Sequence record: OK076929.1
Strand: one strand, 5' to 3'
DNA from: Escherichia phage vB_EcoM_C2-3
DNA length: 64,000 nucleotides
The notes below the pieces were generated by a model. It saw only the letters and a list, made by a program, of their open reading frames with translations, was not told the origin of the DNA and searched no databases. The position numbers were made by a program, and so were the translations under genes. Each line of letters begins with the position of its first letter. The stretch's first letter is position 1. Below, piece by piece: positions 1,938 to 54,862 of this stretch.

Positions 1938-1966
1938 TAGCCCCGACCGAAAGGTTGGGGCTTTTT
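1938..1966 (+). terminator. intrinsic terminator hairpin (ccccgacc-gaaa-ggttgggg + T-run)
   Basis: 8-bp stem with GNRA loop followed by cttttt. Confidence 0.6.
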
Positions 1967-1968
1967 GG

Positions 1969-1976
1969 TATAAATA
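1969..1976 (+). promoter_or_regulatory. late promoter (TATAAATA)
   Basis: Exact TATAAATA about 40 nt upstream of ATG at 2015. Confidence 0.5.
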
Positions 1977-2014
1977 TTAGTATATTAAATCTACAAATTA
2001 AAACAGGAAATAAG

Positions 2015-2488
2015 ATGAAATCATATACTCAATTTTTAAATGAAGCGGTGTTAAATGAAGCATCTAGCACCGAAATTCAAGCTGTTGCAAAAGCTGCCAT
2101 TGCCGCGGGTAAATATTCCTATAAAGATGCTTCTGATGAATCACGATTCCAGTTTGCACGCGACATGAAAGCGGAAGGATTTACGGGAAATGCAGTTAGT
2201 ATGGCCTGGAAAAGTTTAGTTGCTACTGGCGCTGCTTTTGCAAAGGCTTCGGGTAAACCTGCTCCTAAAGCAGATCCTAAAGCGGCACAAGAAAAAAATA
2301 TCGTTAAAGGAATTATCGCTAAATATGAAGCTATCCTTAAAGAGCTTTTAGTAATCAAAACCGAAGGCCAAAAGTTAGCCCGTGCTTATAGTTTCAAAGA
2401 TAATCCACATGCTCATGACCTAGAGTATGTTGAAGACATCCAAAAAATTATTAAAGACCGCATTTGGTCTGCTAAACAAATCAAATAA
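2015..2488 (+). CDS. internal-protein-like polypeptide with capsid-targeting-sequence-like N-terminus (MKSYTQFLNEA)
   Basis: N-terminus matches T4 internal protein CTS pattern MK-S/T-Y-x-x-F-L/I-x-E; Ala/Lys-rich body; ORF track start 1838 rejected as extension. Confidence 0.55.
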   Translation: MKSYTQFLNEAVLNEASSTEIQAVAKAAIAAGKYSYKDASDESRFQFARDMKAEGFTGNAVSMAWKSLVATGAAFAKASGKPAPKADPKAAQEKNIVKGIIAKYEAILKELLVIKTEGQKLARAYSFKDNPHAHDLEYVEDIQKIIKDRIWSAKQIK

Positions 2489-30268: not shown

Positions 30269-30580
30269 ATGATTAGTTTTGAGCGGTACGTGGTAGAGAG
30301 TTGGAAGGGTTTTGATATGTTCGGTAATGACTATTATTTTTACGAATGTAATCTAAATCCTAGTTTTTGGGCTGGACGTGAACGAGATCTCGAAGAAATT
30401 AATGCTCGTGCCGAATTGTTAGGTGAATTGCCTACGGTTTATTTTACCTTTGATGCGTCTGGATTTGTTATCCAGGTTTATTTTCCTGAAGAAAACTCTG
30501 GTGAGGATTCTGTTAATCCTCCTTATTGGGCTTACCAAGGAATTATTTCTCGTGGAACAAAACTCGAACTTAAAGAATAA
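30269..30580 (+). CDS. hypothetical protein (103 aa)
   Basis: ORF track. Confidence 0.5.
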   Translation: MISFERYVVESWKGFDMFGNDYYFYECNLNPSFWAGRERDLEEINARAELLGELPTVYFTFDASGFVIQVYFPEENSGEDSVNPPYWAYQGIISRGTKLELKE

Positions 30581-52302: not shown

Positions 52303-52485
52303 ATGGAATTAGTAAAGGTAGTTTTTATGGGGTGGTTTAAGAATGAAAGCATGTTTACTAAAGAAACCACAATGATGAAAGATGACGTTCAATGGGCTAC
52401 TACTCAATATGCTGAAGTTAATAAAGCATTAGTTAAAGCTTTCATTGATGACAAGAAAGTATGTGAAGTAGATTGCCGAGGATAA
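52303..52485 (+). CDS. dmd: Dmd (discriminator of mRNA degradation; antitoxin against RnlA/LsoA)
   Basis: 60 aa, recognised as T4 Dmd. Confidence 0.85.
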   Translation: MELVKVVFMGWFKNESMFTKETTMMKDDVQWATTQYAEVNKALVKAFIDDKKVCEVDCRG

Positions 52486-52486
52486 T

Positions 52487-52744
52487 ATGCATATTGTTTT
52501 ATTTAAACCTACTCCGTATAACGTCAGGAAAAATACTCAATTCAAAGCACTTATTGCCGATACGTGGGAATTGGTGCTAGATATTCCAGCAGAAGAAAGT
52601 CCTCCATTTGGTCGAGTGGAATTTATTAAGTTTGCTGTGCGCCCTACTAAGCGACAGATTCGTCAATGTAAAAGATACTTTCGTAAAATCGTCAAGCTAG
52701 AGAAACAGTTTGTAACATGTGATTACGCAGAAGTTTTAAAATAA
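52487..52744 (+). CDS. hypothetical protein (85 aa; T4 61.4 position)
   Basis: ORF track. Confidence 0.55.
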   Translation: MHIVLFKPTPYNVRKNTQFKALIADTWELVLDIPAEESPPFGRVEFIKFAVRPTKRQIRQCKRYFRKIVKLEKQFVTCDYAEVLK

Positions 52745-52746
52745 CT

Positions 52747-52776
52747 GTTTACTTTTGTTGAAAATTGAGATACTAT
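52747..52776 (+). promoter_or_regulatory. early promoter
   Basis: gtttac 52747-52752, 18 bp, tactat. Confidence 0.45.
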
Positions 52777-52804
52777 ATAAACATAAACTACTGAGGAGAT
52801 TATC

Positions 52805-53098
52805 ATGAAAAAATTTATCTTTGCTACAATTTTTGCTTTAGCTTCTTGTGCTGCTCAGCCTGCTATGGCAGGTTATGATAAAGATTTGTGTGAATGGTCT
52901 ATGACTGCGGATCAGACTGAAGTTGAAACTCAAATTGAAGCAGATATTATGAATATCGTTGAGCGCGATCGTCCTGAAATGAAAGCTGAAGTGCAAAAAC
53001 AGCTTAAGTCTGGTGGTGTAATGCAGTATAATTATGTTCTGTATTGCGATAAAAACTTTAATAACAAAAATATCATCGCTGAAGTGGTAGGTGAGTAA
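52805..53098 (+). CDS. sp: Spackle periplasmic protein Sp
   Basis: 97 aa with signal peptide, recognised as T4 Sp. Confidence 0.8.
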   Translation: MKKFIFATIFALASCAAQPAMAGYDKDLCEWSMTADQTEVETQIEADIMNIVERDRPEMKAEVQKQLKSGGVMQYNYVLYCDKNFNNKNIIAEVVGE

Positions 53099-53110
53099 TT
53101 AGAGGTTAGT

Positions 53111-53467
53111 ATGCATAGTTCTGAATTTTCATATTTAAAAATGGAAAAAATTTCATACGATTTTATAGATGAAAAGGTTTATTACAGTTTCCATGAACCA
53201 CGTTTTAATAGTGAGGTTGGGTTTATTGTAGTAAAAGACAATTTCATTTTAAAGATATATTCGGCATTAAAGGATTTTCACTACGAAAATATTAACCTAA
53301 AATTTGATAAAGAAAACGTTCGTAATTGTGCAGTAACAATTACAGGAAATAAAGGCACATGTGTTATGCTATCTGATGAAATTAATGATTTGCTAAATGA
53401 TGCCGAAAAGGTTGCTATTCCATCTATTGATGACCAAATTTTTAATGCTTTTATGAATAGAGGTTAA
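53111..53467 (+). CDS. hypothetical protein (118 aa; T4 61.2 position)
   Basis: ORF track. Confidence 0.55.
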   Translation: MHSSEFSYLKMEKISYDFIDEKVYYSFHEPRFNSEVGFIVVKDNFILKIYSALKDFHYENINLKFDKENVRNCAVTITGNKGTCVMLSDEINDLLNDAEKVAIPSIDDQIFNAFMNRG

Positions 53468-53468
53468 T

Positions 53469-53633
53469 ATGAAAACATATAAAGAATTTATCAAAGAAGA
53501 TATGGTTGCTGGAGATTCAGGTGGTAATCCTGAAAATATCTCTACTGGAACAACATCAGGTGCTGTAGTAAATAAAGGTCCTGAACAGATTCCTAAAAAG
53601 AAAAAAGAGGAATCTAAAGAAAAAGAAGAGTAA
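53469..53633 (+). CDS. hypothetical small protein (54 aa) with CTS-like N-terminus MKTYKEFIKE
   Basis: Below ORF-track cutoff; N-terminus matches internal-protein capsid targeting pattern. Confidence 0.4.
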   Translation: MKTYKEFIKEDMVAGDSGGNPENISTGTTSGAVVNKGPEQIPKKKKEESKEKEE

Positions 53634-53636
53634 AGA

Positions 53637-54665
53637 ATGTCATCAATACCTTGGATTGATAATGAGTTTGCATATCGTGCATTAGCTCATTTACCTAAAT
53701 TCACACAAGTAAATAATAGTTCAACTTTTAAATTACGGTTTAGATGCCCAGTTTGTGGAGATTCAAAAACCGACCAAAATAAAGCCCGTGGATGGTATTA
53801 TGGTGATAATAATGAAGGAAATATTCATTGTTATAACTGTAACTATCATGCGCCAATCGGAATATATTTAAAGGAGTTTGAACCTGATTTATATCGTGAG
53901 TATATCTTTGAAATAAGAAAAGAAAAAGGTAAAAGTCGTCCAGTAGAAAAACCTAAAGAACTTCCTAAACATCCTGAGAAGAAAATAATTAAATCTCTTC
54001 CGTCATGTGTTAGATTAGATAAACTGACGGAAGACCATCCAATTATAAAATATGTAAAAGCTCGTTGTATTCCAAAGGATAAATGGAAATATCTTTGGTT
54101 TACAACCGAATGGCCTAAATTGGTTAATAGCATAGCACCGGGAACATATAAAAAGGAAATACCTGAGCCTCGTCTTGTTATTCCAATTTATAATGCTAAT
54201 GGAAAAGCTGAGTCTTTTCAAGGACGTGCATTAAAGAAAGATGCTCCTCAAAAATATATCACCATCAAAGCTTATCCTGAGGCAACAAAAATATATGGAG
54301 TCGAACGAGTTAAAGATGGTGATGTATATGTTCTAGAAGGACCTATAGATTCACTTTTTATTGAAAATGGTATAGCTATTACGGGTGGTCAATTAGACCT
54401 AGAAGTTGTTCCATTTAAAGATAGACGTGTGTGGGTTTTAGATAATGAACCTCGTCATCCTGACACTATTAAGCGAATGACTAAATTAGTTGATGCAGGA
54501 GAAAGGGTTATGTTTTGGGATAAATCTCCCTGGAAATCAAAAGATGTTAATGATATGATTAGAAAGGAAGGTGCAACCACTGAACAAATTATGGAATATA
54601 TGAAAAATAATATTGCCCAGGGGTTGATGGCTAAAATGCGGCTATCTAAATATGCTAAGATTTAA
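53637..54665 (+). CDS. 61: DNA primase gp61
   Basis: 342 aa; zinc finger CPVCGDSK...CYNC; recognised as T4 gp61. Confidence 0.95.
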   Translation: MSSIPWIDNEFAYRALAHLPKFTQVNNSSTFKLRFRCPVCGDSKTDQNKARGWYYGDNNEGNIHCYNCNYHAPIGIYLKEFEPDLYREYIFEIRKEKGKSRPVEKPKELPKHPEKKIIKSLPSCVRLDKLTEDHPIIKYVKARCIPKDKWKYLWFTTEWPKLVNSIAPGTYKKEIPEPRLVIPIYNANGKAESFQGRALKKDAPQKYITIKAYPEATKIYGVERVKDGDVYVLEGPIDSLFIENGIAITGGQLDLEVVPFKDRRVWVLDNEPRHPDTIKRMTKLVDAGERVMFWDKSPWKSKDVNDMIRKEGATTEQIMEYMKNNIAQGLMAKMRLSKYAKI

Positions 54666-54862
54666 ATTAACCCAACTAAAGCAAATGCTAAATCTACGAA
54701 TGTATCAAGAGTAATTACTGGAATATTAACACCATGAGCAATAGCAATTGGTGATAAAACAAAATTCCAGAGTAAAATTCCTACCGTAGCAGAAATAGTA
54801 AAAGCTATACGTTTTTTATTACCTTTTATGGCATTAACAAGTGCCATTAATTTTTGTACCAT
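54662..54862 (-). CDS. hypothetical small membrane protein (66 aa), antisense to the early-gene cluster
   Basis: Only credible minus-strand ORF outside + genes; fills 61-56 gap; GGAGGA SD 4 nt before ATG; two hydrophobic segments. Confidence 0.45.
   Translation of the reverse strand: MVQKLMALVNAIKGNKKRIAFTISATVGILLWNFVLSPIAIAHGVNIPVITLDTFVDLAFALVGLI

What the first reader, a model, noticed from the sequence alone, without database searches (positions are those of the whole stretch)
53469..53633. Second small protein with a capsid-targeting-like N-terminus inside the replication gene cluster
A 54-aa ORF between the 61.2-position gene and primase 61 begins MKTYKEFIKE, close to the internal-protein CTS consensus, followed by a Gly/Ser/Lys/Glu-rich tail. 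If real, it would be a second packaged and injected peptide encoded far from the classical IP loci.
Basis: inference. Interest (0 to 1): 0.45.

Follow-up and report, generated by a model that had tools for sequence, protein, structure and literature searches.

The report
Mini-copy of capsid protein's cleavage junction
This small conserved T4-type phage gene (61.1) encodes a 54-residue protein copying the stretch of the major capsid protein that spans its maturation cut site and the following 'N-fist'; its start therefore looks like a head-targeting signal, but nothing yet shows that it is packaged.

Summary
ORF 53469-53633 (+) is a real, conserved gene, the ortholog of T4 gene 61.1. It begins MKTYKEFIKE, 8/10 identical to the IPII/IPIII capsid targeting sequence (CTS). 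It keeps all four experimentally defined CTS determinant positions (4, 7, 8, 10).

The 'Gly/Ser-rich tail' is not filler. Residues 2-46 are homologous, in register and without gaps, to major capsid protein gp23 residues 57-101. Glu10 falls on Glu65, the gp21 maturation cleavage site, and residues 11-36 match the gp23* N-fist (66-91). Support: hhalign 98.3%, E 1.3e-14, and gp23 is the only significant hit in a PDB-wide search.

In about 590 other T4-like phage records the same module sits at the C-terminus of a ~160-aa protein. Short forms like this one carry a CTS-like aromatic-x-x-aromatic-aliphatic motif in 21/32 cases, against 1/41 for long forms. An aliphatic-x-Glu motif before the module is kept in most of both.

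The best-supported mechanism is inferred (confidence about 0.4): entry into the prohead core and cleavage by gp21, releasing a free N-fist-like peptide.

Evidence against: no late promoter, the protein was not detected in T4 proteomics, it is absent from head inventories, and the mature peptide is acidic. The gene adjoins an anti-toxin gene island, so an anti-defence decoy role is a serious rival.

The parts
53460..53463 (+). Shine-Dalgarno GAGG, 5 nt upstream of the ATG. The upstream gene's TAA stop (53465-53467) ends 1 nt before the start, so the two genes are tightly coupled.
   Evidence: Read directly from the sequence. The same upstream sequence is present in T4.
53469..53633 (+). Gene 61.1 ortholog, 54 aa plus stop codon.
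53469..53498 (+). Codons 1-10, MKTYKEFIKE. This is a CTS-like decapeptide and also the homolog of the last residues of the gp23 propeptide (gp23 57-65, AFGSFLTE region). Tyr4, Phe7, Ile8 and Glu10 align with gp23 Phe59, Phe62, Leu63 and Glu65. Ile-Lys-Glu fits the (L/I)-x-E cleavage motif of gp21.
   Evidence: CTS determinants are taken from PMC9026906.
53499..53576 (+). Codons 11-36, DMVAGDSGGNPENISTGTTSGAVVNK. This is the homolog of the gp23* N-fist (gp23 residues 66-91).
   Evidence: The N-fist is defined as residues 66-91 in PMC7136217.
53577..53606 (+). Codons 37-46, GPEQIPKKKK. These align with gp23 92-101 (GPAVMGMVRR), the start of the N-arm. Gly37 and Pro38 are invariant across the 61.1 family.
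53607..53633 (+). Charged C-terminal tail EESKEKEE plus stop codon. The tail varies between lineages and is mostly Lys/Arg-rich elsewhere.
53595..53606 (+). A-runs (A5 then A6) encoding KKKK. The T6-type alleles P0002 and P0004 change frame here and carry a different, basic tail that runs on past the gene 61 start codon.
52303..53467 (+). Upstream context: dmd (52303-52485), 61.4/tifA (52487-52744), spackle (52805-53098) and an AdfA-like 118-aa gene (53111-53467). Published work calls this region an anti-toxin island.
   Evidence: The island is described in PMC9391042.
53637..54665 (+). Primase gene 61. It lies downstream of 61.1 in all five phages examined: directly adjacent in T4, Acj61 and XZ1, with one small ORF between in kaaroe and two in KP27.

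Best explanation
Shown: the ORF is the T4 gene 61.1 ortholog, a real and conserved gene. Its product is a miniature paralog of the maturation junction of the major capsid protein gp23.
- Residues 1-10 correspond to the last residues of the gp23 propeptide. They also match the capsid targeting sequence (CTS) pattern of the internal proteins.
- Glu10 corresponds to Glu65, the residue after which the prohead protease gp21 cuts gp23.
- Residues 11-36 correspond to the 26-residue N-fist of mature gp23*.
- Residues 37-46 correspond to the start of the N-arm. A charged tail follows.

Inferred mechanism: gp61.1 enters the assembling prohead core through its CTS-like N-terminus, as the internal proteins do. 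gp21 cleaves it after Ile-Lys-Glu10 and releases a 44-residue 'free N-fist' peptide.

In the ~160-aa long forms of other T4-like phages, the N-terminal domain would play the role of a larger propeptide or targeting part, removed at the conserved aliphatic-x-Glu site.

Not settled by the evidence: what the released peptide then does. It could stay with the DNA and be injected, leave the head, or dock on the gp23 lattice.
For: Identity: 52/54 identical to T4 gp61.1 with the same neighbouring genes, and a full-length match to phrog_1823.

Homology to gp23:
- An ungapped alignment of residues 2-38 to gp23 57-93, 16/37 identical, 35.4 bits, E 2e-6 for a proteome-sized database.
- Family-versus-family hhalign gives 98.3% probability, E 1.3e-14, over 47 columns. 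The long-form family against gp23 gives 96.9%, E 1.7e-10.
- In a profile search of all PDB sequences, the only significant hits are T4 gp23 chains; the full-length chain scores E 3.2e-9 over residues 58-101.
- A profile built only from short forms hits all four gp23 proteins fetched, E 4e-8 to 7e-7.

CTS features:
- 8/10 identical to IPII/IPIII MKTYQEFIAE. T4's own 61.1 shares its first 21 nt with ipI.
- Positions 4, 7, 8 and 10 are the mapped determinants (PMC9026906), and all four are kept.
- The CTS can encapsidate virtually any protein it is attached to (PMC7697877).

Family pattern:
- A Glu lies 1-3 residues before the module in 32/32 short and 44/47 long junctions. An aliphatic residue sits at P3 in 25/32 short and 39/44 long junctions.
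- The two aromatic 'targeting' residues occur in 21/32 short forms but 1/41 long forms (Fisher p = 2e-9; the sequences are not independent). This fits an N-terminal signal needed only where the N-domain is missing.

Timing: the IP genes are also classed as early transcripts with late-appearing protein in the T4 dataset, so early transcription does not exclude packaging. Gene 40, a head-assembly factor, lies in the same cluster.
Against: - There is no direct evidence of translation, packaging or cleavage.
- T4 gp61.1 was not detected at any time point in whole-cell proteomics, although its neighbours gp61.2 and Sp were.
- It is absent from the published T4 prohead and head composition table.
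- No TATAAATA late promoter lies within 12 kb upstream on the coding strand. The IP-like ORF at 2015 has one 39 nt before its ATG.
- The predicted mature peptide is acidic (pI about 5.0), unlike the basic IPs.
- The residue after the predicted cut is Asp; known T4 sites recalled have Ala or Ser there (from memory, not tested).
- A few long forms have Asp or no acidic residue at the junction: P0062, P0076 and P0078.
- The CTS-likeness could simply be inherited from gp23 residues 59-65 without acting as a targeting signal.
- The gene adjoins known anti-toxin genes.
Confidence: 0.4

Rival explanations
1. Cytoplasmic anti-defence decoy. gp61.1 is made early and stays in the cytoplasm. There it mimics the N-terminal junction of newly made gp23, so that it occupies or blunts a host factor or immune sensor that recognises the capsid protein. 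On this reading it is one more member of the dmd-tifA-adfA counter-defence island.
For: The gene lies immediately downstream of dmd (anti-RnlA), 61.4/tifA (anti-ToxN) and 61.2/adfA (anti-DarT). The authors of PMC9391042 call the region a possible anti-TA island and say other genes there are attractive anti-toxin candidates (Pfam AdfA hit). The T4 transcript is early. Major capsid proteins are established triggers of bacterial immunity: Lit/Gol with EF-Tu (PMC3014915) and Avs7/Dsr1 (PMC13581612). The homology to gp23 is robust.
Against: No known sensor targets gp23 residues 57-101. From memory, the Gol peptide that activates Lit lies at about residues 100-128, just after the region 61.1 copies; the source paper is not held. 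The decoy idea does not explain why an aliphatic-x-Glu protease motif is kept before the module in both forms. It also does not explain why the aromatic pair appears only in short forms. The 61.1 module does not track the gp23 of its own genome, which a tight mimic might be expected to do.
Confidence: 0.25
2. Trans-acting head-assembly or maturation modulator that is not packaged. As a free N-fist and cleavage-site mimic it could bind gp23, Soc or gp21. Possible effects are to hold back premature or aberrant gp23 polymerisation, to compete as a pseudo-substrate of gp21, or to fill N-fist docking sites that are empty next to gp24 pentons or the portal.
For: The N-fist (gp23 66-91) contacts four neighbouring subunits and helps form the Soc binding site (PMC9958956; PMC9546572). 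N-fists facing the portal are disordered because they lack a partner capsomer (PMC7136217), and N-fists are described only for gp23, not gp24. Gene 40, a head-vertex assembly factor, shares this early gene cluster. T4 already encodes a separate regulator of the protease, Inh.
Against: Near-atomic T4 head structures have been published, and the papers read here do not mention unassigned N-fist-like density (absence of mention only). Early expression and apparently low abundance fit poorly with a stoichiometric structural role. gp21 is active only inside the prohead, so a pseudo-substrate would still have to be packaged.
Confidence: 0.2
3. Evolutionary relic. The ORF is a leftover fragment from a partial duplication of gene 23, with no function of its own.
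For: It is short, the monomer is predicted to be largely unstructured (mean pLDDT 59), the protein was not detected in T4 proteomics, and the C-terminal tail tolerates frameshifts.
Against: The module is conserved across genera at 40-75% identity, with 12 invariant residues. It is kept in 1,493 phage records and always lies next to or just upstream of primase gene 61. It has a good ribosome binding site and is tightly coupled to the upstream gene. It matches no other frame or strand ORF of comparable conservation.
Confidence: 0.05

Closest known systems
T4 gene 61.1 product (NP_049649; phrog_1823; T4-like gene cluster 'T4-GC 1491, non-cyanophages only')
   Same: Orthologous: 52/54 identical, same length, same position between the 61.2-position gene and primase gene 61.
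   Different: Two substitutions (Tyr4 here versus Phe4 in T4; Thr26 versus Ile26). The function of the T4 protein is unknown, so this match identifies the ORF without explaining it.
[quoted passage not shown]
   Same: An N-terminal decapeptide that is 8/10 identical to IPII/IPIII. It has an aromatic residue at positions 4 and 7, an aliphatic residue at 8 and Glu at 10, ending in an (L/I)-x-E gp21 motif.
   Different: It is encoded outside the IP loci and has no late promoter. Its mature part is acidic and homologous to gp23. It is not in the published head inventory.
Maturation junction and N-fist of major capsid protein gp23 (residues about 57-101; PDB 6UZC, 7VS5, 5VF3)
   Same: Homologous and in register over 44-47 residues, including the Glu65 cleavage position and the N-fist residues 66-91.
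   Different: It lacks everything else in gp23: the first 55 residues of the propeptide, the Gol region and the whole HK97-type fold. It is not a capsid protein, so the 'major capsid protein' labels on homologs in some GenBank and UniRef records are misnomers.
Long-form 61.1 proteins (phrog_2086; for example KP27_034, Acj61 61.1 and the KVP40-type 159-aa proteins)
   Same: The same gp23-like module and Lys-rich tail, and the same position next to or just upstream of primase gene 61.
   Different: They carry a ~110-residue, mostly helical N-terminal domain of unknown function. No counterpart was found in this window, and it has no similarity to the gp23 propeptide. They lack the aromatic CTS-like pair.
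Anti-toxin island genes dmd, tifA (61.4) and adfA (61.2)
   Same: The same early-transcribed cluster of small accessory genes, immediately adjacent.
   Different: There is no sequence similarity to any of them, and no toxin or defence target is known for 61.1.

Membership tests
T4 gp61.1 family (phrog_1823) | Full-length profile match | tested here: met
   phrog_1823, E 7e-34, residues 1-54 matched to profile positions 1-54 of 54.
T4 gp61.1 family (phrog_1823) | Conserved position next to or just upstream of primase gene 61 | tested here: met
   Seen in the window, T4, AV121, KP27, Acj61, XZ1 and kaaroe; one or two small ORFs intervene in kaaroe and KP27.
CTS-bearing internal head proteins (IPI/IPII/IPIII type) | N-terminal ~10-residue CTS with the targeting determinants at positions 4 and 7 | tested here: met
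   Tyr4 and Phe7, as in IPII/IPIII (T4's own 61.1 has Phe4, as in IPI). Overall 8/10 identity (determinants from PMC9026906).
CTS-bearing internal head proteins (IPI/IPII/IPIII type) | gp21 processing determinants at positions 8 and 10, i.e. the (L/I)-x-E motif | tested here: met
   Ile8-Lys9-Glu10 is present in the sequence. Actual cleavage was not tested.
CTS-bearing internal head proteins (IPI/IPII/IPIII type) | Expressed when proheads assemble (own late promoter, or protein present late) | tested here: inconclusive
   No TATAAATA lies within 12 kb upstream, whereas ORF 2015 has one at 1969-1976. In T4 the transcript class is 'early' for 61.1, and also for ipI, ipII and ipIII. The 61.1 protein was not detected.
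CTS-bearing internal head proteins (IPI/IPII/IPIII type) | Physically present in proheads or virions and injected | not testable with these tools
   It is not listed in the T4 prohead and head composition table (PMC9026906). No virion proteomics mentioning 61.1 was found.
CTS-bearing internal head proteins (IPI/IPII/IPIII type) | Basic mature protein | tested here: not met
   Mature residues 11-54 have pI about 5.0, against 9.0 for IPI* and 9.6 for IPII*. Tails in other lineages are basic.
Major capsid protein gp23 family (Pfam PF07068) | Matches the family model and carries the HK97-type capsid fold | tested here: not met
   No Pfam hit at E<=1. Only 44-47 residues are homologous, to gp23 57-101.
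Phage anti-toxin / anti-defence island proteins (dmd, tifA, adfA) | Located in the island and transcribed early | tested here: met
   Gene order 41-dmd-61.4-sp-61.2-61.1-61. Early transcript class in T4. The island is proposed in PMC9391042.
Phage anti-toxin / anti-defence island proteins (dmd, tifA, adfA) | Neutralises a defined host toxin or defence system | not testable with these tools
   No literature on a 61.1 function was found.

The most novel reading that the evidence does not exclude
gp61.1 is a trans-acting 'spare N-fist'. After gp21 removes its CTS-like leader (or the N-domain in long forms), the free peptide would occupy N-fist docking sites on the gp23 lattice. These sites have no donor subunit next to the gp24 pentons or the portal. 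This would make it an unrecognised minor structural component of T4-type heads. Alternatively, the same mimicry could be used in the cytoplasm to blind a host sensor of nascent capsid protein. Either way, it would be a phage protein that works by copying a short segment of its own capsid protein.
Probability: 0.15. Interest if true: 0.8.

Novelty: new variant of a known kind. Interest (0 to 1): 0.55.

Why it matters
T4 head assembly is among the best studied virus assembly pathways, yet gene 61.1 has stayed 'hypothetical'.

This analysis shows that the gene encodes a stand-alone copy of the gp23 cleavage junction and N-fist. [quoted passage not shown]

Two concrete ideas follow:
- The CTS may be related to the capsid protein's own propeptide end.
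- T4-like phages may make a small gp21 substrate that mimics the capsid N-terminus.

Both can be tested directly with virion mass spectrometry, CTS-fusion packaging assays and a deletion mutant.

The result also corrects 'major capsid protein' labels on these small proteins in public records. It adds a candidate to the anti-defence island next to dmd, tifA and adfA.

Tried and rejected
- Co-evolution of 61.1 with the gp23 of the same genome. KP27 at first looked better matched to its own gp23. A 6 x 4 matrix of T4, window, KP27, Acj61, kaaroe and XZ1 against four gp23 proteins showed no own-genome preference. Not supported.
- Fold of the long-form N-domain. The AlphaFold2 model had mean pLDDT 48.5 and the short form 59.3. 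Both are too poor for a fold search, so none was run.
- N-domain of long forms as a copy of the gp23 propeptide. hhalign aligns only the module. Rejected.
- The long-form N-domain encoded elsewhere in this window. tblastn found nothing (best E 0.55).
- 61.1 as a Gol-peptide mimic for Lit. The copied segment ends where the Gol region begins. The Gol coordinates are from memory, because Georgiou 1998 is not held. Judged unlikely.
- Recent recombination with IP genes as the origin of the N-terminus. The first 21 nt are identical between T4 61.1 and ipI, and 25/30 nt match ipII/III. These are all the preferred A/T-rich codons, so the result is uninformative.
- dN/dS among close relatives. Only 2 synonymous and 2 non-synonymous codon differences separate T4 and the window. 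Uninformative.
- The search for homologous proteins with a gp23 N-terminal fragment returned only fragments.
- A numeric literature search for '61.1/61.2/61.4' returned only irrelevant papers.
- The T4 genome review (Miller 2003) is not held.
- The whole-library HMM search (1.84 billion representatives) found 50 family members. No full-length gp23 reached E<=0.001 at that database size.

Full report
**1. Observation**

The ORF is at exactly 53469-53633 (+). It has an ATG start, 54 codons and a TAA stop, and translates to MKTYKEFIKEDMVAGDSGGNPENISTGTTSGAVVNKGPEQIPKKKKEESKEKEE. A GAGG Shine-Dalgarno sequence lies 5 nt upstream. The stop codon of the preceding gene ends 1 nt before the ATG.

The window is a Tequatrovirus. 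The 2.4-kb region around the ORF is 95-99% identical to 489 T4-type phage records. The gene order is 41, dmd, 61.4, sp, 61.2-position gene, this ORF, primase 61, as in T4.

The ORF is the ortholog of T4 gene 61.1, 52/54 residues identical, and a full-length match to phrog_1823 (E 7e-34). tblastn (E<=10) matches it in 1,493 phage records from Escherichia, Klebsiella, Aeromonas, Acinetobacter, Vibrio and other hosts; the weakest are not significant. It is therefore a real, conserved gene.

**2. The N-terminus**

MKTYKEFIKE is 8/10 identical to the IPII/IPIII capsid targeting sequence (CTS), MKTYQEFIAE. T4's own 61.1 begins MKTFKEFIKE, and its first 21 nt are identical to those of ipI.

No other start codon in any frame of the window reaches 7/10; the next best scores 6/10.

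According to PMC9026906, Mullaney and Black mapped CTS targeting mainly to residues 4 and 7, and processing to residues 8 and 10. All four are kept here: Tyr or Phe at 4, Phe7, Ile8 and Glu10. The two differences fall at positions 5 and 9. Ile-Lys-Glu fits the (L/I)-x-E motif of the prohead protease gp21.

**3. The rest of the protein is not a low-complexity tail**

Residues 2-38 align without gaps to T4 major capsid protein gp23 residues 57-93. The alignment has 16/37 identities, 35.4 bits and E 2e-6 for a proteome-sized search space.

The register places Glu10 on Glu65, the residue after which gp21 cuts gp23. Tyr4, Phe7 and Ile8 fall on Phe59, Phe62 and Leu63.

Several independent searches support this homology:
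- Family-versus-family comparison gives 98.3% probability and E 1.3e-14 over 47 columns.
- A profile search of every PDB sequence finds T4 gp23 chains as the only significant hits; the full-length chain scores E 3.2e-9, residues 58-101.
It hits all four gp23 proteins fetched (T4, KP27, Acj61, kaaroe) at E 4e-8 to 7e-7. The next best hits are the IPII and IPIII N-termini.

gp23 residues 66-91 form the N-fist (PMC7136217). This segment starts inside the prohead. After expansion it lies on the capsid surface, contacts four subunits and helps form the Soc binding site (PMC9546572; PMC9958956).

In summary:
- Residues 1-10 of gp61.1 correspond to the end of the gp23 propeptide, which is also the CTS pattern.
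- Residues 11-36 correspond to the N-fist.
- Residues 37-46 correspond to the start of the N-arm.
- A charged tail follows.

Some GenBank and UniRef records call these small proteins 'major capsid protein'. That label reflects this partial similarity and is wrong as a functional name: there is no Pfam hit at all.

**4. Family anatomy**

In Klebsiella phage KP27, Acinetobacter phage Acj61 and Vibrio phage XZ1, the gene upstream of primase (directly adjacent in Acj61 and XZ1) encodes 159-162 residues (phrog_2086). The same module and a Lys-rich tail sit at the C-terminus, behind a ~110-residue N-terminal domain.

That domain occurs in about 590 phage records. No counterpart was found in this window, and it is unrelated to the gp23 propeptide.

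An exhaustive profile search of 1.84 billion representative proteins found 50 family members of 50-251 residues.

Across distinct junction sequences:
- A Glu lies 1-3 residues before the module in 32/32 short and 44/47 long forms.
- An aliphatic residue sits at P3 in 25/32 short and 39/44 long junctions.
- The aromatic-x-x-aromatic-aliphatic pattern, which corresponds to the CTS targeting positions, is present in 21/32 short forms but only 1/41 long forms (Fisher p = 2e-9; the sequences are related, so this is indicative only).

Examples of short-form starts from distant lineages are MKTFNEFLKEAEVSGD, MKIKTFDEFVEAMVAGD, MIKFKDFVESMVAGD and MIGFKQFVEENKLKEDMTAGD.

It is therefore not met for short forms. 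Long forms lack the resemblance altogether.

**5. Expression and presence in particles**

The T4 late-promoter core TATAAATA occurs six times on the + strand of the window, and none lies between 40913 and the ORF. One sits at 1969-1976, 39 nt before the ATG of the IP-like ORF at 2015, just after a terminator-like hairpin.

In the time-resolved T4 transcriptome and proteome (PMC9697503, Table S2):
- 61.1 has transcript class 'early' and protein class NA, meaning not detected.
- Its neighbours 61.2 and sp were detected.
- ipI, ipII and ipIII are also 'early' at the transcript level and 'late' at the protein level.

Early transcription therefore does not exclude packaging. However, there is no positive protein evidence.

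The published composition table of T4 proheads and heads does not include gp61.1. I found no paper that discusses its function; 'gp61.1' occurs in two papers, both as gene-table entries.

The predicted mature peptide (residues 11-54, 4.6 kDa) has pI about 5.0, against more than 9 for mature IPI and IPII. As a monomer the protein is predicted to be largely unstructured (mean pLDDT 59).

**6. Mechanism**

Shown:
- the gene is real and conserved;
- it is homologous to the gp23 junction and N-fist;
- it carries the CTS pattern;
- the protease-type motif is conserved across the family;
- the two family architectures exist.

Inferred as the best explanation (confidence 0.4): gp61.1 is targeted to the prohead core by its CTS-like leader and cut by gp21 after Glu10. 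This releases a free N-fist-like peptide.

On this model the N-domain of long forms is the equivalent removable part. That would explain why processing determinants are near-universal while targeting determinants appear only in short forms. The fate of the released peptide is unknown.

Rivals:
- A cytoplasmic anti-defence decoy (0.25). This is favoured by the position next to dmd, tifA and adfA, which PMC9391042 calls a possible anti-TA island. It is also favoured by capsid proteins being immune triggers.
- A non-packaged modulator of assembly or maturation that binds gp23, Soc or gp21 (0.2).
- A relic without function (0.05), which the deep conservation argues against.

**7. Comparison with known systems, and novelty**

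- It is a member of the gp61.1 family.
- It works like, but is not shown to be, a CTS-bearing internal protein. Two sequence features are met, one is inconclusive, one (a basic mature protein) is not met, and the defining physical presence in heads is untested.
- It is not a capsid protein.

In the literature I could search, I found no report of either of these points:
- gene 61.1 is a stand-alone copy of the gp23 maturation junction;
- the IP CTS pattern coincides with gp23 residues 59, 62, 63 and 65.

Only automated 'major capsid domain-containing protein' names hint at it.

I rate the finding a new variant of a known kind, with interest 0.55.

**8. What led nowhere**

- The test for co-evolution with the gp23 of the same genome was negative.
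- Structure models were too poor for fold searches.
- Overlap with the Gol peptide is unlikely; the coordinates are from memory.
- Codon identity with the IP genes is uninformative because of codon bias.
- dN/dS is uninformative because close relatives differ too little.

Noticed in passing
window 53111-53467 (+): The gene at the 61.2 position encodes only 118 aa. It matches Pfam AdfA (anti-DarT factor A) over profile positions 113-211 only; T4 AdfA is 208 aa and matches full length. It belongs to a separate PHROG (phrog_4122). This phage may therefore carry a half-size or N-terminally replaced AdfA variant, which could alter its anti-DarT activity.
   Followed up: partly
window 1940-2488 (+): A 157-aa ORF at 2015 begins MKSYTQFLNEAVLNEA, with a CTS-like start and two possible L-N-E cut sites. 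A terminator-like hairpin (1940-1966) and a late-promoter core TATAAATA (1969-1976) precede it. It matches phrog_2280, function unknown.
   Followed up: partly
window 30269-30580 (+): A 103-aa ORF begins MISFERYVVES and fits a loose CTS-like pattern (aromatic-x-x-aromatic-aliphatic-x-E). It matches phrog_2749, function unknown. The loose pattern also gives chance hits, so this is only a lead.
   Followed up: no
window 53595-53606 (+), and proteins P0002 and P0004: T6-type alleles of 61.1 (62 aa) change frame within the A-runs that encode KKKK. They end in a different, basic tail (RNLKKKKSKNVINTLD) that reads on past the gene 61 start codon. Relative to this window, two frame changes are needed.
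   Followed up: partly
proteins P0113, P0127 (237-251 aa) and P0131 (149 aa): Some metagenomic relatives continue past the 61.1 module into a second ~100-residue domain whose start reads like another CTS (MNEVSNFKQFVEGLE, MTEMVDFKQFVESLE). These are either true fusions or a downstream CTS-bearing gene merged by a missing stop codon. The RB49-type 61.1 starts with the same FKQFVE motif.
   Followed up: no
L008:5807 (KP27_206, 262 aa) and L012:2841 minus strand (kaaroe_6, 78 aa): Other T4-like phages have ORFs with CTS-like starts outside the classical IP loci. KP27_206 begins MTHLKKFKEFLTEG and lies between genes 3 and 2. The kaaroe UvsW.1-position protein begins MISFKRFLVEAA.
   Followed up: no
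public records of 61.1 homologs (for example H36, H40, H45, H59, H83, H100, H102; UniRef names of P0002, P0037, P0045): Small 61.1-family proteins (54-165 aa) are labelled 'major capsid protein' or 'major capsid domain-containing protein'. The label comes from the 44-47-residue similarity to the gp23 N-terminus and is misleading.
   Followed up: yes
proteins P0092 and P0112: These two database representatives are the 61.1 sequence with systematic Thr-to-Ile, Ala-to-Val, Ser-to-Leu/Phe and Pro-to-Phe changes (MKIFKEFIKEDMVVGDLGGNFENIFIGIILGVVVNKGFEQIFKKKKEEFKEKEE). This is the pattern expected if every C in the gene was read as T, as in an assembly of bisulfite-type or deaminated reads. They are probably artefacts, not variants.
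   Followed up: no
window 54662-54862 (-): A 66-aa hydrophobic ORF lies on the opposite strand and overlaps the end of primase gene 61 by 4 nt. It is conserved (phrog_2024, E 7.5e-31) and annotated as hypothetical in phage AV121. T4 has no annotated counterpart at this spot in the stretch examined.
   Followed up: no
protein P0031 (distant gp23 fragment): A distant gp23 relative keeps the FLTE cleavage motif and the VRRAMPNLIAYDICGVQPM region but lacks the GDHGY...SGAVT.IGP N-fist segment. Gene 61.1 is annotated 'non-cyanophages only' in phage AV121. The N-fist and 61.1 may therefore co-occur across T4-like phages.
   Followed up: no
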